From the NCBI GenBank assembly GCA_027487075.1, contig JAIYEG010000006.1:4468-68467 (forward strand): a DNA stretch of 64,000 nucleotides. The letters are read 5' to 3'. A program made the translations under genes and the position numbers. Under the pieces are notes generated by a model, which had not been told where the DNA came from, searched no databases, and saw nothing but the letters and a program-made list of their open reading frames with translations. This document shows, in pieces, positions 3,575 through 61,886 of the stretch. The stretch is from a bacterium (GTDB lineage: Bacteria; Patescibacteriota; Minisyncoccia; Phycocordibacterales; CALRBL01). The first letter of the stretch is position 1. Every line of letters begins with the position of its first letter.

Positions 3575-3614
3575 TGTGGTCACATTATAGCGTAAAAGAC
3601 CAAGTAGTAAGAGG

Positions 3615-3729
3615 GCTTCTCTGAGATGTTCTTCCGTAAGGAGACTTGCGAGGCTCGACGGAGTGAGCACGAGGAATTTTCTAGTAAGAAAATATCCGTG
3701 CTCCTGGAGGAAGAATATATCAGAGAAGC
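3615..3729. repeat. structured intergenic repeat element, copy A (conserved core inside a locus-specific inverted repeat)
   Basis: Arms GCTTCTCTGAGATGTTCTTCC / GGAAGAATATATCAGAGAAGC flank the core CGACGGAGTGAGCACGAGGAATTTTCTAGTAAGAAAATATCCGTGCTCCTGG. Core is near-identical to the copy at 37468-37535 (opposite strand) and homologous to copies at 11266, 29229, 31342 and 45130. Confidence 0.8.
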
Positions 3730-3775
3730 TGGTTAATACTTTGCATTCTTATGCTTTATGTGGTAATTTCTCCCT

Positions 3776-4039: not shown

Positions 4040-4056
4040 TACGTGCATCGCACATC

Positions 4057-4092
4057 AAAAAACCGCCCTTAGCATAGCTTCGGCGGTTTTTT
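4057..4092. terminator. Rho-independent terminator (bidirectional position)
   Basis: AAAAAACCGCCC...GGCGGTTTTTT hairpin plus U-tract between convergent rpsT and the 4114-4719 ORF. Confidence 0.7.
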
Positions 4093-4113
4093 GATGTTGA
4101 GTTGAGATTTTCT

Positions 4114-4719
4114 TTACTTCTTGGTGAAGATTGCCTGAGGAGCAGCTTTTTTAGTATTTGGCTGGAGTTTGTCCCACATCACAGTGACGTGTTTATCGTC
4201 GGTTCGAGTGAGAGTAAAAAGAGTATCTCCTTTGGTAAATTTTTTAGTGGTATTCGATCCAAGTACTGAGTTGTCGTAGGTATCGAAGGTCACTTTATAT
4301 GTTCCATCGTCTTGTGTTTCAAGAATAGTGGTGAAGCGGAGTTGGGTCTGGAAGCCGTCGACTTTCATGTAGCCTCGGACAGGGTCGGTGTCGGCGGTAA
4401 TGTCATAAGAGTATTGCCATCGCTGAGTAGGGCTCGCTGATTCATCAAAGTAGTAGGTACCAAATTGTGTTGCTTCAGAGTCGGCGGGAAGTTTTGATTG
4501 GGGGTGAGTCATAGGCACCTGCACCATTGAAGTTTCTTCGATATAGTAGGTCGACATTGCACGGACTTGCTCATACTGTACGCCGATACAGAAACAGAGA
4601 GTGGGGATGACACCGAGAGCAAAAATAATCCACATCAGTTTTGAATACCAGGTAACTTCGTTGAGTTTGATCATGTTTGTAATATAACATGATTTTATGT
4701 GCGGTGCTCTACGAGGCAT
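4114..4719 (-). CDS. hypothetical membrane-anchored secreted protein
   Basis: N-terminal TM helix then soluble domain; start may be the internal Met (MIKLNEV). Confidence 0.5.
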   Translation of the reverse strand: MPRRAPHIKSCYITNMIKLNEVTWYSKLMWIIFALGVIPTLCFCIGVQYEQVRAMSTYYIEETSMVQVPMTHPQSKLPADSEATQFGTYYFDESASPTQRWQYSYDITADTDPVRGYMKVDGFQTQLRFTTILETQDDGTYKVTFDTYDNSVLGSNTTKKFTKGDTLFTLTRTDDKHVTVMWDKLQPNTKKAAPQAIFTKK

Positions 4720-4809
4720 CCATCGCTCCTTACAGGAGCAGTACCCCGATTGGATACTCTGCTTCGGCTCGAATACTCGCCTCGCATAGTATGCTCAATT
4801 TATTCGCTG

Positions 4810-4881
4810 TGCTCTCGGCAGGAATCGAACCTGCATTACAACTTCCGCAAAGTTGCGTCCTATCCATTGAACGACGAAAGC
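4810..4881 (-). tRNA. tRNA-Arg (anticodon GCG)
   Basis: GCTTTCGTCGTTCAATGGATAGGACGCAACTTTGCGGAAGTTGTAATGCAGGTTCGATTCCTGCCGAGAGCA; perfect 5-bp anticodon stem, loop TTGCGGA, no encoded CCA. Confidence 0.75.
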
Positions 4882-4910
4882 ATATGACTAACGGTACTCG
4901 GCACTATACA

Positions 4911-5411
4911 CTAAAATCCGAGCCATTCAAGTACTCGGTGACCGAGACTTTCCATGTGTTCACCCTCCTCGAGGAAGATAGAAAGATATTCACGAACATC
5001 CTCAGGGTGTACTTCGGCGATAGGGATTACGATGAGGGGCATCAATGATTTCTTTGATTTGATAAAGATTTTTGCAAAGGTGCCGATGTCAGTTTCGTGA
5101 GTTTCGATATCAAATGATTCGAGGGTTTTGTAAGGGTAGAAGGTGCGATCAATCTTGACTCCGCGCTCGTTCAACGTGATTTTTACCAGTTTTGGTTCAT
5201 GATGGTGTGCATGAACAGCGAGTGAGATTGCCGCTACGATGACGAGAAGTGCAAAAATTGCATTTCCAAATATGATTGATGCCCCCGCAATCGCAAGACT
5301 GATAACAAAGAGTGCCCAATACCAATCGGGGGTCTTTGGTTCATGAAGGTACTCGTACGCTTGCCATGTAATCGAAGATTCCATACCGTAAGTATATACT
5401 ATGACTCTCAC
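4911..5411 (-). CDS. hypothetical membrane protein
   Basis: Two TM helices plus His-rich segment HAHHHEP; no family assigned. Confidence 0.5.
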   Translation of the reverse strand: MRVIVYTYGMESSITWQAYEYLHEPKTPDWYWALFVISLAIAGASIIFGNAIFALLVIVAAISLAVHAHHHEPKLVKITLNERGVKIDRTFYPYKTLESFDIETHETDIGTFAKIFIKSKKSLMPLIVIPIAEVHPEDVREYLSIFLEEGEHMESLGHRVLEWLGF

Positions 5412-8226: not shown

Positions 8227-8556
8227 ATGATCACTATCGACGACTTTAAAAAAGTAGAAATTAAAATTGGCACCGTAGTAAGTGCAGAAAAGGTAGAAGG
8301 GGCTGACAAGCTCATTCGTTGTATGGTGGACTTCGGCGAAGAGGCTCCACGACAGATTCTTTCGGGTATCGCTATGCATTTTCCAGATCCCTCAGTGCTC
8401 GTGGGAAAAAGTTTTCCTTATGTCACCAATCTCGAACCTCGCACGATCCGTGGTTTTGAAAGCAACGGCATGATCATGGCAGCATCAGATAGCGATGGTG
8501 GTTTTGCACTCCTTTCTCCCACTGCTCCCATCAAACCCGGAACCCTCCTCTCGTAG
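8227..8556 (+). CDS. tRNA-binding domain protein (CsaA/Trbp111-like OB fold)
   Basis: FKKVEIKIGTVVSAEKVEGADKLIRCMVDFGEE resembles the MetRS C-terminal / EMAP tRNA-binding domain. Confidence 0.65.
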   Translation: MITIDDFKKVEIKIGTVVSAEKVEGADKLIRCMVDFGEEAPRQILSGIAMHFPDPSVLVGKSFPYVTNLEPRTIRGFESNGMIMAASDSDGGFALLSPTAPIKPGTLLS

Positions 8557-8714
8557 GCAACAGATGGATTGTCAGCATGAAAGAGAAAGAAATACCTAAA
8601 GCAATGTGTTGCGGAGTGCTGGGCACGAGCATAGCAAATTTTTACCAGAAAATTATGCGCGCATTGCGTAGGTATTTTCTTTTTCTCTTTCATGCTGTGA
8701 TATAATTTCTTTCG

Positions 8715-11149: not shown

Positions 11150-11221
11150 GCCCCTGTAGTTCAATGGATAGAACTGCGGACTTCTAAGCCGTCAATCTAG
11201 GTTCGATTCCTAGCGGGGGCA
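11150..11221 (+). tRNA. tRNA-Arg (anticodon TCT)
   Basis: GCCCCTGTAGTTCAATGGATAGAACTGCGGACTTCTAAGCCGTCAATCTAGGTTCGATTCCTAGCGGGGGCA; loop CTTCTAA. Confidence 0.8.
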
Positions 11222-11373
11222 CAAGCCAAGAAATCCAAACCGCTTTGGATTTCGCTGGACTTGTGCCGGCCGGAGCGCGACGGCGCGAGGTGGGGTCGCG
11301 GACATTTTTAGTAAAAAATGATCCGTGACCACAAGTTAAATCTTCAAACAGGGTACTGATCCTGTAAGGATCG
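11222..11373. repeat. composite structured repeat, copy F: tRNA-3' hairpin, GCGCGACGGCGCGAG core, A/T hairpin and UGUAA-loop hairpin
   Basis: GGCACAAGCC...GGACTTGTGCC hairpin; GGAGCGCGACGGCGCGAGG; ACATTTTTAGTAAAAAATGA; CAAACAGGGTACTGATCCTGTAAGGATCG. Confidence 0.75.
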
Positions 11374-11426
11374 ATATATTGATAAAAAACATCTTTTACG
11401 CTACAGTGAGTCGGTCAGTCTAAGAA

Positions 11427-11499
11427 GGGCGATTAGCTCAGTTGGTAGAGCAACCCGTTTACACCGGGAAGGTCATAGGTTCGAGTCCTGTATCGCCCA
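11427..11499 (+). tRNA. tRNA-Val (anticodon TAC)
   Basis: GGGCGATTAGCTCAGTTGGTAGAGCAACCCGTTTACACCGGGAAGGTCATAGGTTCGAGTCCTGTATCGCCCA. Confidence 0.85.
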
Positions 11500-11605
11500 C
11501 AAATGAACAGCGAGAGCGTGGAATTTTTTTTCAAACGAAGAAGAGAATTTTTATGAAATTCAAGAAGAATGTCGCAGATTTTATACCGAGCTGACAGAAT
11601 CGTTT

Positions 11606-12531: not shown

Positions 12532-12540
12532 CAAAGTAAA

Positions 12541-12576
12541 ACCACTGGTTCGCTGGGGGGCCAGCGAACCAGTGGT
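12541..12576. other. perfect 16-bp hairpin (second tandem stem-loop)
   Basis: ACCACTGGTTCGCTGG-GGGG-CCAGCGAACCAGTGGT. Confidence 0.7.
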
Positions 12577-12899
12577 CAATTGGTGCGGGGAGGTCTCTAG
12601 AAGAGCTTATTCATGTATCGCCGCCCGCCGCCGTCGGGGTCGCGGGTTGGGACGTAGGAATGAGCTCAAGCTTAGAAGATCTTGACCAGGGAGTCTTTGG
12701 TCTCGATTTCCTTCGGGGATTGCTCGGGTAGCGCAAAGTCCGAGTCCGGCTAATACACTTGTTTCCAGTGGCTGCTGTTGCTGCTGCTTTCTCATACGAT
12801 TTCTATTGCTTGTTTACTGCGGGCGAATTTGCCCACTACCACACATTGTGATAGATTCGATGTCAAATCTATCATGCGACATTTTATCAATCAACTTTT

Positions 12900-14587: not shown

Positions 14588-14671
14588 GCGCAGGTGTTGA
14601 AACTGGTAGACAAGCACCCTTGAGGTGGGTGTGCCTTAACCGGCGTGGAGGTTCAAGTCCTCTCCTGCGCA
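14588..14671 (+). tRNA. tRNA-Leu (anticodon GAG)
   Basis: GCGCAGGTGTTGAAACTGGTAGACAAGCACCCTTGAGGTGGGTGTGCCTTAACCGGCGTGGAGGTTCAAGTCCTCTCCTGCGCA; long variable arm. Confidence 0.85.
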
Positions 14672-14715
14672 CAAACAAAAGAAATCCCGCAAGGGATTTT
14701 TTTGTTTGTGCGCAG
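14665..14715 (+). terminator. nested terminator: ~17-bp outer stem reusing the tRNA-Leu 3' acceptor strand, with inner AAATCCC-GCAA-GGGATTT hairpin and U-tract
   Basis: CTGCGCACAAACAAAAG ... TTTTGTTTGTGCGCAG are exact reverse complements. Confidence 0.7.
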
Positions 14716-14793
14716 AGCAAGCACCAAGGTGCTTGCGTGAGAGGACTTGAAGCCTGTTTGAGCATGTTGTACGAGCGAAGCGAAGTAGAACAT

Positions 14794-20782: not shown

Positions 20783-22441
20783 ATGTTCTCTCTTGAGTAT
20801 CGAAAAAACGCCGCAGTACTCCTTACCGCGGCTTTTTTCGTGTTCGCTTTTTACCCACAAGTATCGTTTGCAGCAACAGAAGGTTCTGGCCTTCTTCATT
20901 TTATTAATACTACTTTCTTTAAAGAAACATTACCGGACGTAAAACTTTCTGAAGAAGATTTGGCTCATGTGACGAAGCCAGGTATCGTGCGCATTGTTCA
21001 CCATATGAAGGGTGAGCTGGTGATTGATGGCAATTTTGATATCGATCTTAATAAGCTCACCATTGTTCCACTTCCTGCTAAAGCTCCTATCAAGGTACCA
21101 GTTGATGTGTACTACACAGGTACTGGATTTATTATCACTCCGAACGGGCATATTCTCACTAATTCACATGTCATTTCAAAAACTACGGTGATGAGTGAAG
21201 CTGTTACTAAAATTTTGACAGTGCTTATTGCGGGAAAGCTTCAGCGGATGACCGAGGCACAATATGCTGCGTTTACTAAAAAGGGACAGACCGCAGAAGG
21301 ATTAGAACAACAGGCTAAGTTTGCAAAGTCGCTGCGTGAGGAAGCTATGAACATTGTTTCTTTTGAAGGAAATGATGAGGTGGTAGTGCTTAATGGTTCA
21401 AGTGCAGATCAAGACGATACGTTGGTGAACTTGGTTTCAAAAGGATTTCCTGCCCGTGTTGTTAGCGTTAATCATGAATTTCTCAATGATCAAAAAGATG
21501 TCGCAATAGTAAAGATAGGGCAGAGTAATCTGCCATCACTGCCGTTTGTATCATCGAGCACTTCATTCGTAATTGGTAATCGTATTTATGCGTTCGGTTT
21601 TCCAGCTAATGCCGATATTGGTTCTAAAGTGGGAACAGCTTTTACCGTACCTAGCTTTACTACTGGAGTCATCAGTGCTTTCAAAGATTCGGATGATAAG
21701 AAATTTAAACTCATACAAACTGATACTAAAATATCGTCAGGATCGAGTGGAAGTCCTGCGTTTAATAAGCGAGGCGAAGTTGAAGGGATTATGACGTATG
21801 TCACGTCAAGTAATAGTAAGACGAGTGGAGACATTTTTTCTTTTGCGATTCCAAACGAAGTAGTGAAGGAGTTGCTTGATCAAGCTGAGATCACTCCCGA
21901 AACAGGGGATCTGTATACCTACTTCATTGAAGGACTTTCGTTCTATGAAGCAAAGCGTTGCACTGATGCTATGAAAGCTTTCAATAAGGCACGAGAGGTA
22001 AATACCACATTTGGTTCAAGCGCATTTGTCGATGAGTATATCCAAAAATGCAAAGATCTACAGGCTGCGGGGCTTTCTATTGATAGTGAATGGGAAAAAC
22101 TTATGTTCAACCTTAAGCCATGGAGAGGAGCGATTATTATAAGCGTCTCAGCACTCTTCGTGTTCTTTGTGCTTCTTCTGGTATTTATGAAAGTCTTTAG
22201 AAAAATGAAGCAGGATGAAGAAGTTATTGAGCACTATGTGCATCCGATCGCTCCTGTGGCAACAACCACACCTCCATCCATATCACCATCTGTTGTAGAA
22301 GATTCAGGGACTGATATCGTGAAGTTTATTAAAATGGAACAAAGCGTTGGAAGAACAACGGTTGAAATCGTGACCGAGCTCCGTAGTAAAGGACACACTG
22401 ACGAAGAAATACAGCAAGGATTTAATGAGGTGAATCGTTAA
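20783..22441 (+). CDS. secreted trypsin-like (S1 family) serine protease with C-terminal TM and cytoplasmic tail
   Basis: GTGFIITPNGHILTNSHVI (His), DVAIVKI (Asp), KISSGSSGSPAF (Ser) triad contexts; C-terminal TM helix. Confidence 0.75.
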   Translation: MFSLEYRKNAAVLLTAAFFVFAFYPQVSFAATEGSGLLHFINTTFFKETLPDVKLSEEDLAHVTKPGIVRIVHHMKGELVIDGNFDIDLNKLTIVPLPAKAPIKVPVDVYYTGTGFIITPNGHILTNSHVISKTTVMSEAVTKILTVLIAGKLQRMTEAQYAAFTKKGQTAEGLEQQAKFAKSLREEAMNIVSFEGNDEVVVLNGSSADQDDTLVNLVSKGFPARVVSVNHEFLNDQKDVAIVKIGQSNLPSLPFVSSSTSFVIGNRIYAFGFPANADIGSKVGTAFTVPSFTTGVISAFKDSDDKKFKLIQTDTKISSGSSGSPAFNKRGEVEGIMTYVTSSNSKTSGDIFSFAIPNEVVKELLDQAEITPETGDLYTYFIEGLSFYEAKRCTDAMKAFNKAREVNTTFGSSAFVDEYIQKCKDLQAAGLSIDSEWEKLMFNLKPWRGAIIISVSALFVFFVLLLVFMKVFRKMKQDEEVIEHYVHPIAPVATTTPPSISPSVVEDSGTDIVKFIKMEQSVGRTTVEIVTELRSKGHTDEEIQQGFNEVNR

Positions 22442-22442
22442 G

Positions 22443-22479
22443 AAAACTCCGGACAGGCTACGCCTCTCCGGAGTTTTTT
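22443..22479. terminator. bidirectional Rho-independent terminator
   Basis: AAAACTCCGGA...TCCGGAGTTTTTT between convergent genes. Confidence 0.75.
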
Positions 22480-22771
22480 ATGCGAGTGGTGGTTCGGTAT
22501 TTCTGCTAAGGGGGATGAGTCTGCCCGTCGTTTCATCGTACTTGTAGGGGCCTGGTGAGAAGTGAACGGTGATACAAGGCTCTTGAAGAGTTTGTTGTAA
22601 CCCATCGTCAATTCCTACATATGGTCCGATGCCGTCATCCGATCCTGCGCCATCAAAGTGCGGGCTTTGAATGACGATGGTGTTTGCCCCTACTGGTTTC
22701 ATAGTGCAAAGAAATCTTCCCTCAACAAAAACGTCGAGACCGCCACTCGTATTTCGGCGTGCTTCGATCAT
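22478..22771 (-). CDS. hypothetical protein, 97 aa
   Basis: ORF only. Confidence 0.4.
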   Translation of the reverse strand: MIEARRNTSGGLDVFVEGRFLCTMKPVGANTIVIQSPHFDGAGSDDGIGPYVGIDDGLQQTLQEPCITVHFSPGPYKYDETTGRLIPLSRNTEPPLA

Positions 22772-28765: not shown

Positions 28766-29188
28766 ATGCAGATAAAGATCAAGCGCCTTCATCCTGATGC
28801 AAAGCTGCCAAATTTCGCACGTGAGGGAGATGTGGGACTTGATCTGTATTCCTTGGAAGAAAAAACACTTCAACCCGGTGAGCACGCAATACTCTTTACT
28901 GGATTCGCACTTGAATTCCCAAATGGCTATGCCGCGATTGTTAAAGACAAATCAAGTGTTTCTAAAGCTGGTCTTCATACGATGGGTGGAGTCTTCGATG
29001 CTGGATATCGAGGTGAGTACAACGTGCACCTCGTGAATTTGAGTGACACCGCATACACTGTAGAGAAGGGAGATAAGATTGCGCAGATCGTCATGCTTAA
29101 AGTTGAACATCCGGAGATCATTGAGGTTGATGAGTTGTCAGAAAGTGAACGAGGAACAGGAGGATTCGGTAGTACGGGTAAGAAGTAA
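28766..29188 (+). CDS. dut: dUTP diphosphatase
   Basis: MQIKIKRLHPDAKLPNFAREGDVGLDLYS...GVFDAGYRGEYNVHLVN; start trimmed from the ORF track. Confidence 0.9.
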   Translation: MQIKIKRLHPDAKLPNFAREGDVGLDLYSLEEKTLQPGEHAILFTGFALEFPNGYAAIVKDKSSVSKAGLHTMGGVFDAGYRGEYNVHLVNLSDTAYTVEKGDKIAQIVMLKVEHPEIIEVDELSESERGTGGFGSTGKK

Positions 29189-29202
29189 ATAGAGGAATAA
29201 AA

Positions 29203-29307
29203 CTTACAAAACCTTTTCGGAAGGAGGCTCGCAGAGCGCGACGGCGCGAGCGTGAAAAATTTTCTAGCAAGAAAATATCTGTACTCCTGAAGAAAAGGTT
29301 TTGTGAA
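29203..29307. repeat. structured intergenic repeat element, copy B
   Basis: Arms CTTACAAAACCTTTTCGGAAGG / CCTGAAGAAAAGGTTTTGTGAA; core GCAGAGCGCGACGGCGCGAGCGTGAAAAATTTTCTAGCAAGAAAATATCTGTACTCC. Confidence 0.8.
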
Positions 29308-29521
29308 TTTTATTTGCTATACTCATTTCATGAACACCGAAGAACGCCTTCTCGCGCTGGAACAAAAGATTGATGCAATGTCAGTAGTGGTAAAAAAGCT
29401 GTACCGTGTTTTTTTGATTACCGTGATTATAAGCGTAGTTGCGTTTGTGCTTCCTTTGATCGGGCTCCTGTTTGCGATTCCATCATTTTTATCTACCTAT
29501 GCAAGTATTTTGGGACAGTAG
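29303..29521 (+). CDS. small hypothetical membrane protein
   Basis: 72 aa with one TM helix; its 5' end lies in repeat copy B, so likely starts at the internal Met (MNTEERL). Confidence 0.4.
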   Translation: MNFICYTHFMNTEERLLALEQKIDAMSVVVKKLYRVFLITVIISVVAFVLPLIGLLFAIPSFLSTYASILGQ

Positions 29522-29543
29522 CAGCTCATGCTAGACTCATCTC

Positions 29544-31310
29544 GTGAACGACACTATTAAAGCCATTATTCATAGTGCGCTTGTCGCAGAGGGAATCCCC
29601 GCTGAGGTGATATCAGCAGGAACTTTTGTGATTGAGCACCCTGCGGATCTTTCTAAAGGAGACTATTCGACCAATGCAGCGCTCGTCTACGCAAAAGTAC
29701 TCAAGCGAAATCCTGTTGAGTTGGCAAACGCGCTGGTGTCACATATCAAGCTCGAGACTGATGCGGACATAACCCGTGTAGAAGTTGCGGGTCCTGGTTT
29801 TATTAATTTCTTTCTTTCATCGCTTTTTTTCGGAAAGCAGGTGAAAGTAATTCTCGAGAATCCTGAACGTTTCGGACACTCTTCAACTATGAAAGGGCAG
29901 GTGTGGGCGGTGGAGTATGCGTCGCCAAACCCAAACAAGGCAATGCACCTTGGTCATCTTCGCAACACCATTACGGGCGTCGCACTTTGTAATTTGCTTG
30001 AAGCAAATGGAGCGACGGTCATTCGTGAGATGGTGGACAACAATCGCGGTATCTCTATCGCAAAACTTATGTGGGGCTACCTTGTGTCTGCAAAGAAAGA
30101 TGGAAACCGTGTTGAAGACCTTGCGTATTGGCAATCACACAAAGATGAATGGCACACCATCACTGCTTCAGATCGACGTGTGCTCGATGTATGGTATGTG
30201 ACAGGTTCGGAGGAGTGTAAGGATCCGGCGCAAGAAGCGAAAGTACGTGAGCTCGTGGTGAAATGGGAAGCAAAAGATCCGGTGGTGTGGGATTTATGGA
30301 AGACGGTGCTTGATTTTGCGTATCTTCTTCAGAAAGCAACGCTTACTCGTCTTGGTGCGACCTTTGATTATGTCTGGCACGAACACGAACACTATGAAGA
30401 AGGAAAGCGTTATGTAGATGCGGGTGTGAAGACTGGTGTATTTCGTGTGCTCGAAGATGGAGCAATCCTCACTACACTTGAATCATTCGGACTCAGCGAT
30501 ACGATCGTGCAAAAGAATGATGGAACATCACTCTACATCACCCAAGACATCGCTCTCACTGATCTCAAAAAGAAAAAGCACAATGCCGACCATCAGGTAT
30601 GGGTGATTGGTCCTGAGCAATCGCTTGCGCTTCAGCAATTGTTTGCAGTGTGCGAACAGCTTGGTATCGGAATGCGCGAAGAATTTTCTCATGTCTCATA
30701 TGGGTATGTGACCATCAAAGGTCAGGGCAAGATGAGTTCTCGTGAAGGGAATGTGCTCTATGCTGATGATCTTCTTGATGAGCTTCGCATAAAGACAGAG
30801 GGAATCATGGCAGAACGACTTTCGGGGCAAGATAAATCAGTTATTGCAGAAAAGATCGCGCTTGGTGCTGCAATTTATGAAATGCTCAAAGCGGGGCGCA
30901 CTAAAGATATCGCATTTGATATGGAATCAGCGCTTTCATTTGAAGGAGATTCAGGTCCGTATCTTCAGTATGCTCACACCCGCGCACTTTCTATCATGCG
31001 CAAAGCCAAAGAGCAGGGCATCGGTCCTGACGTGGATGGTGCACTTCCTCATGAAGAAAGTGAATTGATTCGAAAGATCTATCGTTTGCCAGAGGTTATC
31101 GAAGAAGCTGCAAAGCTCTATGCTCCTCAGCAGGTGGTGACGTTCCTTACCGATCTTGCGGCGACCTTTAATAATTACTATGCGCATACACAAGTGATTG
31201 CTGACAATGATGCGACGTCTGGAAGACGTGTTGCACTCGTGGCTGCGTTTGCAGAGGTTATGGAGAGTGGGTTGAAGGTTCTTGGTATCAAAACACCGGG
31301 CGTAATGTAA
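29544..31310 (+). CDS. argS: arginyl-tRNA synthetase
   Basis: Class I HIGH region (AMHLGHLRNT), DALR anticodon-binding region, KMSSREGN variant of KMSKS. Confidence 0.9.
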   Translation: MNDTIKAIIHSALVAEGIPAEVISAGTFVIEHPADLSKGDYSTNAALVYAKVLKRNPVELANALVSHIKLETDADITRVEVAGPGFINFFLSSLFFGKQVKVILENPERFGHSSTMKGQVWAVEYASPNPNKAMHLGHLRNTITGVALCNLLEANGATVIREMVDNNRGISIAKLMWGYLVSAKKDGNRVEDLAYWQSHKDEWHTITASDRRVLDVWYVTGSEECKDPAQEAKVRELVVKWEAKDPVVWDLWKTVLDFAYLLQKATLTRLGATFDYVWHEHEHYEEGKRYVDAGVKTGVFRVLEDGAILTTLESFGLSDTIVQKNDGTSLYITQDIALTDLKKKKHNADHQVWVIGPEQSLALQQLFAVCEQLGIGMREEFSHVSYGYVTIKGQGKMSSREGNVLYADDLLDELRIKTEGIMAERLSGQDKSVIAEKIALGAAIYEMLKAGRTKDIAFDMESALSFEGDSGPYLQYAHTRALSIMRKAKEQGIGPDVDGALPHEESELIRKIYRLPEVIEEAAKLYAPQQVVTFLTDLAATFNNYYAHTQVIADNDATSGRRVALVAAFAEVMESGLKVLGIKTPGVM

Positions 31311-31423
31311 CTAGCACAGAATTCTTACTCGGAGAAAACATTGCGCAAGCGCGACGGCGCGAGCATAAGAATTTTCTACCAAGAAAATATCTGTGTTTTC
31401 GAAGAGTAGAGATTTTGTGCTAG
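31311..31423. repeat. structured intergenic repeat element, copy C (exemplar), filling the whole argS-ileS gap
   Basis: Arms CTAGCACAGAATTCTTACTCGGAGAAAACAT / CTGTGTTTTCGAAGAGTAGAGATTTTGTGCTAG; core TTGCGCAAGCGCGACGGCGCGAGCATAAGAATTTTCTACCAAGAAAATATC. Confidence 0.85.
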
Positions 31424-31432
31424 GATAACCCC

Positions 31433-34400
31433 ATGTACAGCCCTCAAAGAGAGACAGAGATCCTCGATTTCTGGAAGAAACACGACATTTTTAATAAGAG
31501 CCTTGAACGGACGAAGGAGGGAGAACCTTATGTGTTTTACGATGGACCGCCTTTCGCGACGGGGCTTCCGCACGTGGGGCACGTCCTTCCATCGACGATG
31601 AAAGACCTCATGCCACGTTATCAGACCATGCGCGGTCGCTATGTGGCACGCCGATGGGGATGGGATTGTCACGGACTTCCGGTAGAAAACCTTGTCGAGA
31701 AAGAGCTTGGACTCAAAACCAAGAAAGATATTCTTGATCTTGGGATCGAGAAGTTCAACACCGCTGCCAAAAACAGCGTGCTTCGCTATGCCGATCAGTG
31801 GCGCGAGCTGGTACCACGTTTTGGACGATGGGTGGATATGGATCATGACTACCGCACTATGGATGCTGACTACACCAGCTCGGTGTGGAGTGTCTTTTCA
31901 CGCCTTAACGACAAGAAACTTGTCTACGAAGGTTTCAAAGTAATGTATGTCTGTCCTCGTTGCGAAACTAGCCTCTCAAACTTCGAAGTGAATCAGGGAT
32001 ACAAAGACATCACTGATATTTCGGTGTATGTGAAATTCGCGAAGGTGAATGCTGAAGCTGACGCGAATGCTTCAAAAGAACATCTTCTTGCGTGGACCAC
32101 AACGCCATGGACTCTTCCTGGCAATATGGCGCTTGCCGTCGGACGCGATATGGAGTATGTGAAGGTTGAAATCACGGGAGAAGAAGGTGTGGTGGTGCTT
32201 GCAACGTCACGCGTAGAGCACGTACTCAAAGGAAAAGAATATAAGGTCGTAGCAGAGATGAAGGGAAGTGAACTCGTCGGCACTTCATATGAACCTGTGT
32301 TTGATACCTACAAAAATGCTGACCTTCAAAACAAGGCGAATGCATGGAAAGTATACGCAGCTGATTTTGTAACAGATGGTGATGGAACCGGTATCGTGCA
32401 TATTGCTCCTGGATTTGGAGATGATGACCTCAGGCTTTCTCAGGCGGAGCAGATTCCATTTGTGCAGCATGTCGGAATGAATGGCATCATCAAAGATGAA
32501 GTTACTGAATTTGCAGGTCTTCATGCAAAACCAAAAGATGAAAAGAAAGATGAGCATCAAGCGACCGATATTGAAGTGATCAAGTATCTCGCAAAGAAAG
32601 GTGCACTCTTCTCAAAAGAAAAAATTGTCCACTCATATCCGCACTGTTGGCGATGCAGTACACCACTTCTTAACTTCGCTACTACCTCGTGGTTCGTGAA
32701 GGTGACTGATCTTAAAGACAAACTCGTTGCAGAGAATAATAAGATTCACTGGGTGCCAGAAGCGGTAGGTGCAAACCGCTTTGGAAAGTGGCTCGAAGGT
32801 GCTCGCGATTGGGCGGTGTCACGAGCCCGTTTTTGGGGTGCACCGATTCCCGTATGGCGAAGTGCTGACGGAAAAACTATAGAGTGCGTGAGCTCCCTTG
32901 ATGATTTGAAGAATAAGATTCGACGCAACACTTATATCGCCATGCGTCATGGTGAGTCTGAACACAATGTAAAAGGCGTGCTTGATTCATCACTCAAGAG
33001 TACCTCGCATCTCACCGACAAAGGAAAAGAAGAAGTAAAAGCAACGGCCGCTGAAATCGGCATGGTTGATGTGATATATATTTCGCCACTGCTTCGCACG
33101 AAAGAAACGGCAAAGATTGTTGAAACAACGATCGGTTATACAGGAAAGGTGATAGTTGATCCGCGACTTGCAGAGTTTGATACTGGCGACTTCGACAAGA
33201 AGCCTCGTGAAGCATTCTTTGCCTACCTCGATACACATCGAACAGGCTCATGGCTTGATATGAAGATTCCAGGTGGGGAAGGATACAAGGATGTACGCAA
33301 TCGCGTATCGGAATTTTTGTATGACATCGATGCACAGCATGAAGGTAAGCGCATCCTCATCATCACTCATGAAGCGCTTGTAAAAATGATCGAAGCGGTA
33401 TCGCTCGGTGGTACTGCAAAAGATGTGACTCATGTATGGAATCAGGGTGGGGTAGCGACTGCGGATACACGCACTATCGACTTTGCCGCTCTTCCAAAAA
33501 ATGCTGACCACGAGCTTGATCTGCATCGTCCCTATATCGACGAGATCACTTGGAACGGCTTGAAGCGAGTTCCTGATGTGTTTGATTGCTGGTTTGAATC
33601 GGGCTCAATGCCATTTGCCTCGCATCAGACCAATTACCCTGCAGAGTTTATTGCGGAAGGTCTCGATCAGACGCGCGGATGGTTCTACTCAATGCTGGTG
33701 CTCGGTGTTGCGCTCGAAGATGCATCTCCCTACAAAAACGTGGTAGTGAATGGGCTGATCCTTGCAGAAGACGGCAAGAAAATGTCAAAGAGTCTTAACA
33801 ATTATCCGCCTCTTGATAAGATTCTCGAGAAGTATGGAGTCGATTCACTGCGCTACTTCCTCCTCTCATCACCTTCAGTGAAGTCTGAAGACACCGCATT
33901 TTCTGAGAAGAGCCTGGATGAAGTGATCAAGAAGCATTTCAATCGTCTGTACAATGTCATCTCTTTGTATGACACCTTCGACTCAACGGATCTTCCGACG
34001 GTGCAATCAGAGCATGTACTCGATCAGTGGATTGTGGCACTGCTTCGCAAGACCGCTGAAACTATCACCTATCACCTTGATCGTTACGAATTCGATAAGG
34101 CAACCAAGCCACTCGGTGACTTCATCGAAGATCTTTCGGTGTGGTATATCCGTCGTTCACGCGATCGCTTTAAGAGTGATGATGTGATAGATAAAGCGGC
34201 AGCACTTGCGACGACGCGCTATGTGCTTATTGAGTTCGCAAAACTCGCGGCGCCATTTGTGCCATTCATTGCCGAAGATGTGTATCTTCATATGACGAAG
34301 GGAATGACTGATGCACAAGAAAGTGTGCATCTTGAAAGCTGGCCAACACTCGGCGCTCCCGATCAACTCGCACTCGCAAAGATGGCAGAGACACGTAAGA

Positions 34401-35475: not shown

Positions 35476-37422
35476 ATGAATGATCTTGAGCGACAACGTG
35501 AAGAAGAGGAGGAGCGAAAAAGTCGTATCGACTCTGCGCGCGACAATTTGTATCGCCCAGGAGGTCCAAGTGTGATTCATCGTGAATCAGATCCGCGATT
35601 GCCGCAGGAAGAAGAGGCGCTCCCATCTCAAACATTCGCTCCACGTGTACCGCGCACCTTCGATGAACAAAAGTTTGCCTCAAAAGCAACTACGATCTTC
35701 CGTCGCATGTTCTTGGGAGCTCTGGTGTTTTTCGTAATTGCAATTGGCGTAGCAGGGTACATGTATTACTACGGCAACACCACTATCTCCGCAAAAAATA
35801 TTGAAGTCGATATTGTTGCACCACCGTCTGTGCCTTCAAGTGACACCTTTTCGTATGATGTGAGTATTCAAAATGGCAACAATGGTGATCTTCTTAACAC
35901 CGCACTCGTCATTGATTACCCAGAGGGCACGCGTAGCGTCGAAGATAATACGAAGCCGTTGGTGAGTGAGCGTATTGAGCTCGGTACCTTGTCGAAGGGG
36001 GCAGTAGTACGCCGCACATTGTCTGCGCGATTCTTTGGAGAAGAGAATGCGCAAAAAGATGTGCAGGTCCGAATCGAATATCAGGTGCCTGGATCTAATG
36101 GGCAGTTTAGTAAAGATGCCGGATTTAGTGTGTTCTTGAGACTCGCCCCTGTCGTGCTCACCATCGATGCGCTCAAAGAAATCAATAACAACCAAGAGGT
36201 GACATTGGTTGCTAAAGTGGTGTCAAACTCAAACAATACCTTAAGCAATCTCGCTCTCAATGTGACATATCCCTTCGGTTTTACGTACAAGAGCTCGAAT
36301 CTCGAAGTTGATGGACGAAAAGGAGAATTTCCACTCGGTGAACTCAAGCCAAATGAGACAAAGACGGTTGAGATTGTGGGAGATATCAGTGGGCAAAGCA
36401 ATGAAGATAAAGTATTTAAATTTAACGTAGGTACGGCAAGTAATGCAGATTCAACACGCGTGAGCACCTCACTTGCAATGCATGTGCATGACATGGTGAT
36501 TCGTGGAGATTTCTTGGCAACGTCGATCACCTTCGCAGATCGTAAGGATTATGTGATTGTTGGTGATAAGCTTCGAGGGACTATACAATGGCAGAATACG
36601 CTCAATGTGCCAGTCAACGATGCTAAGTTCACGCTTAAGATTGACGGGGACTTGATTGATAAAGATAATATCCGCGCAACTCAGGGATATTACGACTCAA
36701 ATCGCTCACTTATTGAATGGAATAAGAATATTGATCCTCGACTTGAAGAAATAAAGCCTGGTGAAAAGGGAGAATTCGCATTCGCTGTTGATCTTAAAGG
36801 TTTCGACGAAGCTCTTGCGGAACGGATTAGTAATCCAAAAATTAATTTGAAGTTCGATGTGCATGCGCGACGTATCAATGAGAATGATGTGACAGAAGAC
36901 ATTGAATCATCATTTGAGAGATCAGTGCCCATGGTGTCAGATGTGGTACTTACAGGCAAGACACTTTATAGCAGTGGTCCCTTGAAAAACAGTGGCCCTA
37001 TACCTCCAAAGGTTGAAACCAAGACCACGTATACCGTAGCACTCACCCTTACCAACACGGTTAATGAAGTATCAAATGGAGAGCTCACCCTTACGCTTCC
37101 CAACTATGTAACCTATGAAGGCGAGGTGACGCCCTCAAGTGAACGTATTTTATGGAATAGTAGCACCAAACAGCTTCGTTGGAGTGTGGGGTCATTGCCC
37201 GTGCGCACAGGATTTGGCACCGCGCCACGCACACTCAACTTTAAAGTGAGTGTATTGCCAAGTCGAAGTCAAATTGGAAAGACGTTGAATCTGGTGAATA
37301 ATGTTAGCTTTGTAGGACGTGATAATTTCGCAAATGCAGAGGTGAAGGCATCAGGAAATATTGTGACAACTTCGGTGCAAGATCCCGGAGCTGGATTTGG
37401 CACAGGGCAAGTGGTACAGTAA
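35476..37422 (+). CDS. large membrane-anchored surface protein with repeated beta-rich (Ig/CARDB-like) domains
   Basis: Charged N-terminus, one TM helix, then ~540 aa of Thr/Ser/Asn/Val-rich repeats. Confidence 0.55.
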   Translation: MNDLERQREEEEERKSRIDSARDNLYRPGGPSVIHRESDPRLPQEEEALPSQTFAPRVPRTFDEQKFASKATTIFRRMFLGALVFFVIAIGVAGYMYYYGNTTISAKNIEVDIVAPPSVPSSDTFSYDVSIQNGNNGDLLNTALVIDYPEGTRSVEDNTKPLVSERIELGTLSKGAVVRRTLSARFFGEENAQKDVQVRIEYQVPGSNGQFSKDAGFSVFLRLAPVVLTIDALKEINNNQEVTLVAKVVSNSNNTLSNLALNVTYPFGFTYKSSNLEVDGRKGEFPLGELKPNETKTVEIVGDISGQSNEDKVFKFNVGTASNADSTRVSTSLAMHVHDMVIRGDFLATSITFADRKDYVIVGDKLRGTIQWQNTLNVPVNDAKFTLKIDGDLIDKDNIRATQGYYDSNRSLIEWNKNIDPRLEEIKPGEKGEFAFAVDLKGFDEALAERISNPKINLKFDVHARRINENDVTEDIESSFERSVPMVSDVVLTGKTLYSSGPLKNSGPIPPKVETKTTYTVALTLTNTVNEVSNGELTLTLPNYVTYEGEVTPSSERILWNSSTKQLRWSVGSLPVRTGFGTAPRTLNFKVSVLPSRSQIGKTLNLVNNVSFVGRDNFANAEVKASGNIVTTSVQDPGAGFGTGQVVQ

Positions 37423-37608
37423 AGGGGACAGGCACCTTTTTTCGTGAAGCAGAGCACCACATAATCGTCAGTGTCCTTACAGGAGCACGGATATTTTCTT
37501 ACTAGAAAATTCCTCGTGCTCGCTCCGTCGAAGCCCCACAAGGCTCCTTTCAGGACACCGCCGATTATGCGTTTCTCTGTCTTTAAAAAGGTGCCTGCCC
37601 CCTTAATT
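37422..37608. repeat. structured intergenic repeat element, copy E (core on minus strand)
   Basis: Arms AAGGGGACAGGCACCTTTTTT / AAAAAGGTGCCTGCCCCCTT; reverse-complement core CGACGGAGCGAGCACGAGGAATTTTCTAGTAAGAAAATATCCGTGCTCCTGTAAGGAC is near-identical to copy A. Confidence 0.85.
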
Positions 37609-39160: not shown

Positions 39161-39170
39161 CTAGATAAGG

Positions 39171-39200
39171 AAAACACCCCGGAGGTCCGGGGTGTTTTGG
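39171..39200. terminator. bidirectional Rho-independent terminator
   Basis: AAAACACCCCGGAGGTCCGGGGTGTTTT. Confidence 0.75.
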
Positions 39201-39217
39201 TGAGAGAATGATTTTGG

Positions 39218-44905: not shown

Positions 44906-45106
44906 ATGAAAAAATGCTACTTCTCACAGAATAATATCAAGCATGTAGATTACAAGGATACGGACTTGCTCAAAAAGTTCCTTAATCCTCATGCTCGTCT
45001 TCTTTCAAGCAAGAAGACTGGTGTGAATGCTAAGCACCAGCGCAAGCTTGCTAACGCTGTAAAGCGCGCTCGCTTCATGGCTCTCATTCCGTATATTAGT
45101 CGATAA
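44906..45106 (+). CDS. rpsR: 30S ribosomal protein S18
   Basis: VDYKDTDLLKKFLNPHARLLSSKKTGVNAKHQRKLANAVKRARFMALIPY. Confidence 0.9.
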   Translation: MKKCYFSQNNIKHVDYKDTDLLKKFLNPHARLLSSKKTGVNAKHQRKLANAVKRARFMALIPYISR

Positions 45107-45220
45107 ACTAAACAAAATACCCCGAAAGAAACATTGCGCAGCCTTGCGGCGAGCATAGGAATTTTTCAGAAGAAAAATATCCGTGTTTCTGAAGGGGTAT
45201 TTTGTTTATTTATCGCTGAC
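45099..45220. repeat. structured intergenic repeat element, copy D, spanning the convergent rpsR-efp gap
   Basis: Arms GTCGATAAACTAAACAAAATACCCC / GGGGTATTTTGTTTATTTATCG; core CATTGCGCAGCCTTGCGGCGAGCATAGGAATTTTTCAGAAGAAAAATATCCGTGTTTC; left arm overlaps the rpsR stop. Confidence 0.8.
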
Positions 45221-53242: not shown

Positions 53243-53315
53243 TTCTCTAGCGTAAGCTTTAGAAGGTAGATTCAACAAAAACACCCCGAAAGGGGTGTTT
53301 TTGTTTGCCTAATTT

Positions 53316-58000: not shown

Positions 58001-58012
58001 TACCACCCCTCA

Positions 58013-58053
58013 AAAAAGAGCCTCCAGACAACTCGTCTCGGGGCTCTTTTTTG
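58013..58053 (+). terminator. Rho-independent terminator after rplL
   Basis: AAGAGCC...GGGGCTCTTTTTT. Confidence 0.65.
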
Positions 58054-58083
58054 TTGTGCCTGTAATCTGCTATACTATCGCTC

Positions 58084-59401: not shown

Positions 59402-59428
59402 GTCTATAAAGGCTCTTTCGGGAGATCG

Positions 59429-59468
59429 TAAAACCCTCTTGGAACCATGGTTCCAAGAGGGTTTTACC
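59429..59468 (+). terminator. strong hairpin terminator (17-bp perfect stem)
   Basis: TAAAACCCTCTTGGAACC-ATG-GTTCCAAGAGGGTTTTA. Confidence 0.75.
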
Positions 59469-59486
59469 TTGGTTTGTGGGGTCTAT

Positions 59487-60377: not shown

Positions 60378-60420
<43 letters not shown>

Positions 60421-61835: not shown

Positions 61836-61886
<51 letters not shown>

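What the first reader, a model, noticed from the sequence alone, without database searches (positions are those of the whole stretch)
31311..31423. Family of structured intergenic repeats: conserved ~60-nt core nested in locus-specific long inverted repeats at gene 3' ends
At least six copies share a core: a GC box GAGCGCGACGGCGCGAGC followed by an A/T hairpin AATTTTCT-N4-AGAAAAT and a (C)CGTGYTCCTG tail. Copies are at 3615-3729, 11266-11373, 29203-29307, 31311-31423, 37422-37608 (inverted) and 45099-45220. The A/T hairpin shows compensatory changes: ATTTTCT/AGAAAAT in copies A, B and C; ATTTTTC/GAAAAAT in D; CATTTTT/AAAAATG in F. That argues for selection on structure rather than sequence. 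In every copy the core sits inside a different ~20-30 bp perfect or near-perfect inverted repeat, so each element can fold into a ~110-190 nt Y-shaped hairpin. Copy C occupies the whole 122-nt gap between the argS stop and the ileS start, and copy D covers the rpsR stop and the whole convergent gap to efp. A repeat family of this density is unexpected in a streamlined genome. It is not a tRNA, a CRISPR or a simple terminator (cores lack U-tracts). Candidates: a REP/MITE-like element that targets terminator hairpins; a protein-binding RNA or DNA structural motif; or a new cis-regulatory/3'-UTR RNA family tied to translation genes (rpsT, argS, ileS, glyQS, rpsR, efp flank copies).
Basis: seen in the sequence. 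Interest (0 to 1): 0.85.

Follow-up and report, generated by a model that had tools for sequence, protein, structure and literature searches.

The report
Y-capped palindromic repeat family in Patescibacteria
The flagged sequence is one of seven copies in this window of a previously uncatalogued repeat: a long hairpin capped by a conserved Y-shaped fold, scattered through many tiny-genome Patescibacteria between genes, next to tRNAs and even in frame inside essential genes, so it behaves like selfish palindromic DNA and not like a regulator of translation genes.

Summary
The window holds seven copies, not six. Each is a 115-185 nt hairpin whose arms differ between copies. The arms carry a 70-75 nt unit that is 64-89% identical between copies and folds into a three-way junction. 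A pattern scan of species-representative genomes gave about 108 true copies, all in Patescibacteria MAGs, and none in viral contigs. All helices covary (95.7% paired against 35-58% in slid controls). Rfam 15 has no match even at E<=10, and four of eight literature searches aimed at such an element found no description.

The reading as a 3'-UTR regulator of translation genes fails. Orientation is random relative to genes (27 sense, 39 antisense) and to GC skew. At least nine copies elsewhere lie in frame inside essential genes (SecA, PheT, UvrD, Tgt, TsaD, Dus), six of them antisense. One genome carries near-identical copies at unrelated loci. Two orthologous spacers hold copies in opposite orientation.

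Best reading, at about 0.5: a new, structure-constrained, RPE/ERIC/MITE-like interspersed palindromic element. Why the cap is so deeply conserved is unexplained. A variant linked to tRNA genes and always co-oriented with them (copy B) suggests that the fold is also used as RNA.

The parts
31311..31423 (+). Copy D (the flagged one): complete hairpin filling the argS-ileS spacer. The conserved unit is 31331-31403 (GGA / P1 GAAAACA:UGUUUUC / cap / GAA).
   Evidence: CM 76.1 bits. Fold -47.5 kcal/mol, z -7.8. The same sequence occurs in Logan contig L001. A degenerate copy lies in the same spacer of a relative with 67% ArgRS identity.
3614..3730 (+). Copy A: hairpin between the divergent starts of ruvA(-) and rpsT(+). 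Unit 3636-3708.
   Evidence: CM 90.1 bits. Fold -58.3 kcal/mol, z -7.2. Pfam assignments of the neighbours.
8574..8696 (+). Unit 8599-8668, with a covarying P3 (AAAUUUUU/GAAAAUU).
   Evidence: CM 50.8 bits. Fold of 8556-8700 -59.8 kcal/mol, z -8.0.
11259..11336 (+). Copy B: the tRNA-linked variant (type T2). It has the same P2b hairpin and P3 but a different junction (CCGGAG..GAGGUGG, GGUCGCGG:CCGUGACC). It lies between tRNA-Arg (11150-11222) and tRNA-Val (11427-11500), with small hairpins on both sides.
   Evidence: CM 38.3 bits. Fold. tRNAs. T2 lies next to a tRNA gene on the same strand in 8 of 8 loci where one is within 170 nt. P2a covaries in the 14-sequence alignment.
29198..29312 (+). 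Copy C: hairpin after dut and before a small ORF and argS. Unit 29219-29291. The arms are A-rich on the 5' side and U-rich on the 3' side.
   Evidence: CM 87.2 bits. Fold -44.3 kcal/mol, z -5.7. Exact copy in L001. A relative has a plain terminator at this site.
37422..37604 (-). Copy E: a 183-nt nested hairpin on the minus strand, antisense to both flanking + strand genes (a DUF11 protein and a class II aaRS). Unit 37478-37552. The outermost stem, GGGGACAGGCACC + U-tract, reads as a terminator on the + strand.
   Evidence: CM 83.2 bits. Fold -102.6 kcal/mol, z -11.7. Pfam.
45099..45216 (+). Copy F: hairpin covering the rpsR stop and the convergent gap to efp. Unit 45124-45193. The arms ACAAAAUACCCC/GGGGUAUUUUGU resemble the genome's plain terminators.
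   Evidence: CM 73.2 bits. Fold -51.6 kcal/mol, z -9.0. Exact copy in Logan contig L160.

Best explanation
Copy D belongs to a Patescibacteria-wide family of interspersed, polar, imperfect-palindrome elements. An element is about 110-190 nt (median about 119). It consists of a conserved cap of about 60 nt on a long stem.

The cap is a three-way junction with two arms. P2 is 3-5 bp, then a tandem G.A/A.G loop, then 4 bp, then a GNCG loop. P3 is GGA:UCC, then a bulged A, then 7 bp, then an ANNA loop (mostly AGCA). The long stem may have any sequence but is kept paired, and it carries G.A-type internal loops on the same strand as the cap.

The element behaves as non-autonomous, selfish or semi-domesticated repeat DNA of the RPE/ERIC/MITE kind. 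It is copied to new places as cap plus inner arms. It lands in either orientation. It survives where it does no harm: in spacers, often where a transcript-end hairpin would be, in tRNA operons, and in surface loops or linkers of proteins, where it stays in frame and is read through.

The cap is held constant because it must fold in a single-stranded state of its sense strand. That state is either ssDNA during copying and replication, or an RNA. The fold is presumably the site recognised by an unidentified trans-acting protein.

Shown: the family, its fold, its distribution, its orientation statistics, the in-ORF copies and the paralogous copies. Inferred: mobility as the cause, the nature of the single-stranded state, and the existence of a partner protein.
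For: Family and fold: about 108 true copies among 120 pattern hits, all in Patescibacteria MAGs. 129 CM hits in the genome loci plus 7 in the window. 95.7% of cells pair against 35-58% in slid controls. The covariation score is 0.419 against at most 0.108. 14 of 22 pairs show double changes. P3 covaries completely in copies found only by the CM, for example AUCCGCC/GGCGGAU.

Polarity of the whole hairpin: the arm loops are purine-rich on the cap's strand in 65 elements against 24 (p=1.6e-5), with GA/GA the commonest. The sense strand folds better in 86 of 109 elements.

Repeat-like behaviour:
- Orientation relative to genes is 27 sense against 39 antisense, and relative to GC skew 61 against 68.
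- There is no sense-specific promoter signal.
- One MAG has 96%-identical cap plus inner arms at two loci with unrelated flanks, and a gene flanked by two near-identical whole hairpins.
- The orthologous ftsZ-trxB spacer and one other are occupied in two genomes each, in opposite orientation and with unrelated arms.
- 0 CM hits were found in 102 kb around ArgRS genes of relatives, against 7 in this 64 kb window.

In-ORF copies: nine long ORFs with Pfam domains on both sides of the copy. The PDB alignment places an insert of about 41 aa in a SecA loop that is 38 aa long in 31 of 82 homologs. No split genes were found in the 5 flanking ORF pairs tested. Caps have more stop-free frames than shuffles, 3.79 against 2.51 of 6.
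Against: No transposase, target-site duplication or parent element was found.

A purely selfish repeat should decay once it is resident. Instead, window caps are as close to caps of unrelated genomes (82-93%) as to each other (70-90%), and the median over all pairs is 80.5%. This figure is partly inflated by the search pattern.

The PheT insert sits at the same residue in two genomes whose flanking protein sequence is only roughly half identical by eye over the 40 residues printed. Yet the two caps differ, by inspection, by one compensated pair and one loop base over most of their length.

The argS-ileS copy persists in a relative with 67% ArgRS identity, with P3 fully compensated.

The tRNA-linked variant is co-oriented with its tRNA in 8 of 8 loci.

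Together these point to selection on resident copies, that is, some function. G.A loops are classic RNA motifs.
Confidence: 0.5

Rival explanations
1. A structured RNA module that works for the host. The cap would be a protein-binding three-way junction on a very stable hairpin, used for transcript-end formation, processing or stabilisation, or as a dispersed binding site or decoy for an RNA-binding protein. The tRNA-operon variant (T2) would be the free small-RNA form. Copies would spread by duplication but be kept by selection.
For: Covariation in all helices. Tandem G.A and GAA/GAA loops on the sense strand only. T2 lies on the same strand as its adjacent tRNA in 8 of 8 loci. Copy D's site is occupied in a distant relative, with the P3 pairs all changed but kept. 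Cap sequence is near-universal across lineages, with no homogenisation within genomes. A plain terminator occupies the orthologous place of copy C.
Against: Orientation relative to the flanking genes is random (27 against 39). Six of nine in-ORF copies are antisense to the mRNA yet score as well as sense copies (67-102 bits). The same spacer holds opposite orientations in two genomes. There is no promoter signal on the sense side and no U-tract enrichment. Density differs greatly between related genomes.
Confidence: 0.28
2. A DNA-level signal read in single-stranded DNA, for example a priming, repair, recombination or uptake-related structure that forms when the sense strand is unwound. This would explain conservation that is independent of transcription.
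For: The cap is equally intact in copies antisense to essential ORFs. Polarity is shared by arms and cap. Orientation is unrelated to gene direction. G.A mismatches and GNA-type loops are also stable in DNA (established knowledge).
Against: There is no orientation bias relative to GC skew (61 against 68), which a signal tied to the replication strand should show. No known system uses such a cap. T2's strict co-orientation with tRNA genes argues for an RNA form. Nothing here tests DNA folding directly.
Confidence: 0.12
3. An intron-like element. The long stem would bring the flanks together and the whole hairpin would be cut out of the RNA and the ends rejoined, so that copies inside genes do no harm.
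For: Copies sit inside essential genes (SecA, PheT, UvrD, Tgt, TsaD, Dus). Their hairpins stay nearly perfect inside coding sequence. Patescibacteria are rich in introns (PMC13011429, abstract seen).
Against: All nine in-ORF copies recognised are in frame and free of stops, although only open copies could be recognised that way. None of the 5 flanking ORF pairs tested is a split gene. Both orientations occur. There is no match to any ribozyme or intron family. The inserts sit in known variable loops and linkers where extra peptide is tolerated.
Confidence: 0.05
4. A cis-regulatory or 3'-UTR RNA dedicated to translation genes.
For: In the window several neighbours are translation genes (rpsT, argS, ileS, a class II aaRS, rpsR, efp).
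Against: In a small genome most genes are of this kind. Elsewhere the neighbours are cell-wall, division, transport, pilin and repair genes. Orientation is random. Copy A is upstream of rpsT and copy E is antisense.
Confidence: 0.03

Closest known systems
Rickettsia palindromic elements (RPEs)
   Same: Both are palindromic repeats of about 100-150 bp in a reduced genome. Both occur in spacers, in RNA-gene regions and in frame inside unrelated essential protein genes, at positions the protein tolerates (RPE background: PMC10969869; here).
   Different: RPE families are alike along their whole length and are confined to one genus. Here only a cap of about 60 nt is conserved, it is conserved as a covarying three-way junction, the arms are free, and the family spans very distant Patescibacteria lineages. 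Several frames and both orientations are used inside ORFs. No sequence comparison with RPEs could be run.
ERIC (enterobacterial repetitive intergenic consensus) and Correia/NEMIS elements
   Same: Both are imperfect palindromes of 100-200 bp found in either orientation in spacers that are probably transcribed (no expression data here). Both form long RNA hairpins, and both are unusually well conserved across genera. Correia hairpins are RNase III substrates, and ERIC orientation changes mRNA stability (PMC10969869). These are plausible side-effects here too.
   Different: Those elements have family-wide terminal inverted repeats, and Correia has a TA target duplication. Here the termini are copy-specific and the centre is conserved. 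No branched cap with covariation is known for them (own knowledge).
REP/REPIN sequences mobilised by RAYT transposases, and IS200/IS605-type elements that act on ssDNA hairpins
   Same: Both are strand-specific folded hairpins that matter in a single-stranded state. Both are dispersed in spacers, often at gene ends, in both orientations, and both lack a coding gene of their own.
   Different: REPs are 20-40 nt simple hairpins with a conserved 5' tetranucleotide. REPIN stems are the conserved part. No RAYT or TnpA gene was seen near copies, and there is no replication-strand bias.
Intrinsic (bidirectional) terminator hairpins of the same genome
   Same: They occupy the same places between genes. 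Several window copies have A-rich 5' and U-rich 3' arms with a G+C-rich top, like the plain hairpins at 53267-53312 or 39164-39205. A relative has a plain terminator where copy C sits.
   Different: A 70-nt branched unit replaces the 4-nt loop. Across genomes there is no U-tract enrichment at the hairpin base. Copy D and copy A have no U-tract.

Membership tests
Any Rfam 15 family (4227 models, including the self-cleaving ribozymes, 5S, SRP, 6S, Y RNA-like, HEARO and riboswitches) | A score at or near the family's gathering threshold | tested here: not met
   The window at gathering thresholds gives only a 23S rRNA and tRNAs. The stretch 29150-31480, which holds two copies, gives 0 matches at E<=10. 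Copy B's region gives only chance matches at E>5. 17 other loci give only tRNAs.
Structured single-stranded nucleic acid under selection (generic criterion) | Base pairs kept through compensatory changes, well above shuffled and slid controls | tested here: met
   95.7% paired; 293 cells with double changes against 80 +/- 14 in shuffles; slid controls at most 62. Searches show covariation in P3 and in P2a of T2.
Intrinsic terminator | A G+C-rich hairpin immediately followed by a U-tract in the direction of the upstream gene | tested here: not met
   Mean of 4.16 T in a 12-nt window in the gene direction against 3.91 in the opposite direction; 8 of 58 have at least 7 T. Copies A and D lack a U-tract. 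C, F, G and the outer stem of E are U-rich.
MITE | Terminal inverted repeats shared by all copies of the family | tested here: not met
   For most pairs of window copies the arms are at chance identity; F-G are 61-72% alike over A/T-rich arms. Some subfamilies in other genomes do share arm ends (AAAUAGUCUU../..AAGAGCUAUU; UCGUCGAAG../..CGAGAAAGA).
MITE | A target-site duplication and a related autonomous IS with matching ends | tested here: inconclusive
   GRA triplets flank the unit on both sides in the window (GGA..GAA, GAA..GAA, GUA..GGA). They are equally well read as a G.A internal loop that belongs to the unit. No transposase was seen beside copies. Whole genomes could not be searched.
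Rickettsia palindromic elements | A palindromic repeat inserted in frame in unrelated protein genes at tolerated positions | tested here: met
   Nine ORFs with Pfam domains on both sides. The SecA insert is mapped to a variable loop. The PheT insert lies in the linker before the FDX-ACB domain.
Rickettsia palindromic elements | Sequence membership in one of the RPE families of Rickettsia | not testable with these tools
   No RPE sequence library is available here. The host phylum differs, so membership is unlikely, and the resemblance is one of behaviour.
REP/REPIN-RAYT | A short (20-40 nt) simple palindrome with a conserved 5' tetranucleotide; a RAYT gene in the genome | tested here: not met
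   The conserved part is a 60-nt branched cap. The presence of a RAYT gene could not be checked genome-wide.
Integron attC site | Conserved R''/L''...L'/R' boxes at the base of an imperfect hairpin with a variable centre, at the 3' end of cassettes | tested here: not met
   The arrangement here is the reverse, with a conserved centre and a variable base. The neighbours are housekeeping genes, not cassettes.

The most novel reading that the evidence does not exclude
The cap is a new functional fold of Patescibacteria, not just repeat debris. In one form, it is the binding module of an unknown ribonucleoprotein: the tRNA-operon variant would be the free small RNA, and the dispersed copies would be extra binding sites. 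In the other form, it is the cis site of a new ssDNA-based copying mechanism that places a 70-nt branched unit at the tip of hairpins. Either way, a 60-nt structure kept across a superphylum-scale clade, even antisense inside essential genes, would have a dedicated and still unknown protein partner.
Probability: 0.3. Interest if true: 0.85.

Novelty: new variant of a known kind. Interest (0 to 1): 0.68.

Why it matters
Patescibacteria have tiny genomes in which every 100 bases are thought to be under pressure, yet this window spends about 0.9 kb on seven copies of one element. Relatives tolerate the same element inside SecA, PheT and other essential genes.

The family gives three things. First, it is a large, clean, strongly covarying motif that is missing from Rfam, ready for an RNA-family entry and for structure probing. 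Second, it is a second, independent case of RPE-like repeats in protein genes, in a different reduced-genome lineage. This makes testable the old question of whether such inserts are harmless passengers or raw material for proteins. Third, it poses a puzzle: the cap is conserved regardless of orientation. That points to an unknown partner protein or copying mechanism in a group that cannot yet be grown easily.

Practically, the repeats break assemblies. One Logan contig (L161) starts only 100 nt upstream of rpsT, about where copy A lies, though its sequence was not checked. They also inflate or split gene calls in these MAGs.

Tried and rejected
- **Known RNA families.** Rfam at gathering thresholds and at E<=10 found nothing. 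By eye I considered hammerhead, twister, guanidine-II (ACGR loops), group II domain V, 5S rRNA, SRP RNA, K-turn and attC. All were dropped because the conserved positions or the pairing register do not fit. Covariation supports a GNCG loop, not an ACGR loop.
- **Own promoter.** The best sigma-70-like score upstream of the hairpin is the same on the sense and antisense sides (7.11 against 7.24).
- **Replication-strand bias.** None.
- **Viral origin.** 18 pattern matches in IMG/VR, none confirmed by the CM.
- **Split genes or intron signature.** Five ORF pairs flanking copies are complete, unrelated genes.
- **G.U against A.C counts in the arms, as a strand test.** MFE-based counts were unreliable: 222 against 179 when each strand was folded separately. 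The anchored ungapped count is small, 19 against 6. I relied instead on the purine bias of the arm loops.
- **Terminator hypothesis across genomes.** No U-tract enrichment.
- **Neighbouring transposase.** None beside multi-copy loci.
- **Strain-level empty sites.** Look-ups of rpsR and rpsT returned only the same organism.
- **Literature.** Eight searches were run. Four were aimed at a Patescibacteria repeat or RNA motif of this kind and found no description. The others were broader or returned only unrelated hits.
- **nhmmer.** It was less sensitive than the CM and was abandoned for counting.

Full report
**1. The observation.** The GC box has three matches with at most one mismatch, against none in 100 shuffles. 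The other copies carry variants of it that keep the pairing. Each copy folds into a long hairpin with a branched top (-44 to -103 kcal/mol, z -5.7 to -11.7). For all six, the strand I call sense folds 2-15 kcal/mol better than its complement. A covariance model built later finds a seventh copy at 8574-8696 (50.8 bits). Copies C, D and F recur base for base in contigs assembled independently from two sequencing runs. Assembly artefact is therefore excluded.

**2. Anatomy in the window.** The part shared by copies is a 70-75 nt unit: A 3636-3708, G 8599-8668, C 29219-29291, D 31331-31403, E 37478-37552 (minus strand) and F 45124-45193. It reads as follows:
- a purine triplet (GGA, GAA or GUA);
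- P1, 5-8 bp, either AGGAG:CUCCU or GAAAACA:UGUUUUC;
- P2, made of UGC:GCA, a tandem GA/GA loop, 4 bp and a GACG loop;
- P3, made of GGA:UCC with a bulged A, 7 A/U-rich bp and an ANNA loop;
- GUG, the other P1 strand, and a second purine triplet.

Units are 64-89% identical between copies. Immediately outside them the arms are at chance identity for most pairs, with F-G an A/T-rich exception at 61-72%. The arms are 13-50 bp long. Copy B (11259-11336) is a variant with the same P2b and P3 but a different junction. It lies between tRNA-Arg and tRNA-Val.

**3. Gene context in the window**.
- A lies between the divergent starts of ruvA and rpsT.
- G lies between two + strand ORFs.
- C follows dut and precedes a small ORF and argS.
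- D fills the 122-nt argS-ileS gap.
- E is on the minus strand between two + strand genes.
- F spans the rpsR stop and the convergent gap to efp.

The same genome also has at least eight plain, long, perfect hairpins with A- and U-tract flanks between genes. Several arms (C, F, G, outer E) look like these.

**4. The family outside the window.** I scanned one genome per species with AATTTTYYNNNNRRAAAATATCYGT. About 108 hits carry the whole cap, and all of them are in Patescibacteria MAGs. These are titled Paceibacterota or Parcubacteria group, including Nomura-, Taylor-, Yonath-, Zambryski-, Wildermuth-, Vogel-, Lloyd- and Morani-bacteria, and many are titled 'Candidatus Saccharibacteria'. The 12 hits in other phyla lack the rest of the cap. 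Eighteen matches in viral contigs are all chance matches. The organism of the window is therefore inferred to be a Patescibacterium. Its shortened, unlinked 23S rRNA fits that inference.

**5. Structure.** In an 89-sequence alignment, 95.7% of cells form standard pairs, against 35-58% when partners are slid. The covariation score is 0.419, against at most 0.108 slid and 0.159 shuffled. Fourteen of 22 core pairs show changes on both sides. The apparent invariance of P3 comes from the search pattern. Copies found only by the model have completely different, still paired P3 stems, for example AUCCGCC/GGCGGAU and AAUUCGCC/GGUGAAU. What stays constant is the tandem GA/GA in P2, the GNCG loop, the A/AU internal loop, the AGCA loop and the GUG junction. 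In rare copies the GA/GA is replaced by Watson-Crick pairs (L007, L042), which confirms the register. Rfam 15 has no match even at E<=10.

**6. The whole hairpin has a polarity.** The internal loops of the arms are purine-rich on the cap's strand in 65 elements and pyrimidine-rich in 24 (p=1.6e-5). GA/GA, GAA/GA and GAA/GAA are the commonest small loops, and their complements are absent. Many copies in other genomes carry a second module about 18 bp below the cap: 5' UCGUYGAAG / 3' CGAGAAAGA, or GCGAAGC on both arms. The sense strand folds better in 86 of 109 elements. The element is therefore selected as a folded single strand of one particular strand.

**7. That strand bears no fixed relation to its surroundings.** Between co-directional genes, 27 copies are sense and 39 antisense; 21 lie between convergent genes and 15 between divergent genes. 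Relative to local GC skew the split is 61 against 68. No promoter-like signal favours the sense side. Two orthologous spacers, ftsZ-trxB in L035/L106 and another in L004/L090, are occupied in both genomes, but in opposite orientation and with unrelated arms. Hairpin bases are not enriched in U-tracts. A role in cis in the flanking mRNA, which is what a 3'-UTR element or terminator cap would have, is therefore not supported.

**8. Copies inside genes.** Nine copies lie within long ORFs that have Pfam domains on both sides: SecA, PheT (two genomes, same residue), UvrD/PcrA, Tgt, TsaD, Dus (two genomes, different positions) and one unknown. All are in frame without stops. Three are sense and six antisense, and several frames are used.
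- In SecA the insert of about 41 aa falls in a loop between GLSVG and R.EAY. This loop is 8 residues in the Bacillus structure and 38 in 31 of 82 Parcubacteria homologs. In other homologs it carries unrelated inserts of up to +47 aa.
- A homolog 77% identical in the queried N-terminal 330 residues has a different palindrome of the same length at the same point.
- In PheT the insert is in the linker before the anticodon-binding domain.
- Five pairs of ORFs flanking spacer copies are complete, unrelated genes, so I found no gene split by a copy.
- Caps have more stop-free frames than shuffled caps, 3.79 against 2.51 of 6.

This is the behaviour described for Rickettsia palindromic elements (PMC10969869).

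**9. Evidence for copying.** L086, L087 and L109 come from one MAG. In that MAG, L086:6381-6481 and L087:6850-6950 are 96% identical over cap plus 19 bp of arm, with one compensated arm pair, while the flanks are unrelated. Two whole hairpins that are nearly identical apart from their P2 flank an ABC-transporter gene in inverted orientation. Density is very uneven. There are seven copies in this 64 kb window. In 102 kb around the ArgRS genes of 19 relatives there is no model hit and only one degenerate copy.

**10. Evidence that resident copies are constrained.**
- The degenerate copy sits in the same argS-ileS spacer of the closest relative (67% ArgRS identity). It has the D-type UUGCGCA junction, a reduced P2, and a P3 in which all seven pairs differ yet pair.
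- The two PheT inserts have caps that differ, by inspection, by one compensated pair and one loop base over most of their length, while the neighbouring protein sequence is only roughly half identical by eye.
- L031 and L073, from two species, share a 130-nt hairpin at 97%, while the 5' flank aligns at about 67%.
- Window caps are as similar to caps of unrelated genomes (82-93%) as to each other (70-90%), so homogenisation within a genome does not explain the conservation.

A purely neutral, dead-on-arrival repeat does not predict this.

**11. The tRNA-linked variant.** Fourteen loci plus copy B carry type T2. Where a tRNA gene lies within 170 nt, T2 is on the same strand in 8 of 8 cases and often 0-40 nt away: Val-T2-Arg, Ile-T2, Ser-T2, T2-Leu. 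Its P2a covaries: GCC:GGC, GGC:GCC, AGC:GCU, GUC:GAC. This is the one context in which orientation is not random, and it suggests that the fold is made as RNA there.

**12. Interpretation.** The data fit best a new family of structure-constrained interspersed palindromic elements of the RPE/ERIC/MITE kind. It is multi-copy, copied to unrelated loci, orientation-free, tolerated in spacers and protein loops, and unevenly distributed. The unusual features are these: the conserved part is a branched cap at the tip and not the termini; the arms are free in sequence but kept paired and polar; and the cap is conserved over a very wide clade even where it is antisense to an essential mRNA.

I put about 0.5 on 'selfish or semi-domesticated repeat whose cap is the cis site for an unknown copying or binding factor'. 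I put about 0.28 on 'host-functional RNA module', about 0.12 on 'ssDNA-level signal', about 0.05 on 'excised like an intron', and about 0.03 on the translation-gene 3'-UTR idea. No partner protein, target duplication or parent element was identified. Mobility is inferred from the distribution and was not observed.

**13. Novelty.** There is no Rfam match, and four literature searches aimed at such an element found no description. In behaviour the closest known elements are RPEs and ERIC/Correia elements. Membership of any known family is not supported. I rate it a new variant of a known kind, with a substantial chance that the cap has a dedicated function still to be found.

Noticed in passing
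window 59813-62497 (+): The 23S rRNA covers Rfam model positions 1-2925 in only 2685 nt. It has no 16S or 5S gene beside it, and an ORF follows at 62522. A shortened, unlinked rRNA gene.
   Followed up: no
window 4046-4103, 12533-12584, 14658-14722, 22434-22487, 39164-39205, 53267-53312, 58004-58060, 59421-59475: Plain, long (12-23 bp), near-perfect hairpins, most with A-tract 5' and U-tract 3' flanks, lie between genes. They look like bidirectional intrinsic terminators and score weakly on both strands with the model.
   Followed up: partly
window 11150-11500: A tRNA-Arg(tct) / small hairpin / T2 element / small hairpin / tRNA-Val(tac) cluster. The same Val-T2-Arg neighbourhood, in the reverse gene order, occurs in L025:6515-6812.
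   Followed up: partly
L140:4745-4800: The closest relative found (67% ArgRS identity) has a degenerate copy in the same argS-ileS spacer that the covariance model misses. Its P2 hairpin is reduced to GUGCAC and its P3 is fully compensated. Model-based counts therefore underestimate the family.
   Followed up: partly
L159:129-1376 (soil metagenome SecA): An in-frame TAG stands where SecA proteins have Trp (..QPGRR*SEGLHQAIEAKEG). The reading frame continues as SecA after it, and the gene caller split the gene there. It could be a sequencing error, a pseudogene or recoding.
   Followed up: no
Parcubacteria SecA homologs P0001-P0120, loop between GLSVG and R.EAY..DITY: This loop is an insertion hot spot. 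It is 38 aa in 31 of 82 homologs and up to 85 aa in others. Many inserts read like translated palindromes or low-complexity repeats (for example KNKSEIRNQKSETNPKNEIQNSKDD). L159 carries a different 39-aa palindromic insert exactly where L011 carries the Y-capped element.
   Followed up: partly
L086:3328-5416 (MAG CAZFHL01): An ABC-transporter gene (3511-5286) is bracketed by two whole hairpins in inverted orientation that are nearly identical apart from their P2. A third copy lies 1 kb further on. It looks like a composite unit or a recent duplication.
   Followed up: partly
L009, L026, L031, L036, L037, L060, L073, L086, L089, L109, L118, L120 (arms of the element): A second conserved module lies about 18 bp below the cap: 5' (U)UCGUYGAAG opposite 3' CGAGAAAGA(A), closed by a further short stem. 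Another subfamily shares the arm ends AAAUAGUCUU.. / ..AAGAGCUAUUU with a bulged G.
   Followed up: partly
L161 (Logan SRR30952591 contig), relative to window copy A (3614-3730): This independently assembled contig starts only 100 nt upstream of rpsT, which by that distance falls inside or beside copy A. Its sequence could not be read to confirm the position. If so, the repeats break short-read assemblies of this genome.
   Followed up: no
L085 and L092 (both MAG CAYHML01): Two T2-type copies occur in one MAG, so the tRNA-linked variant is not strictly single-copy.
   Followed up: no
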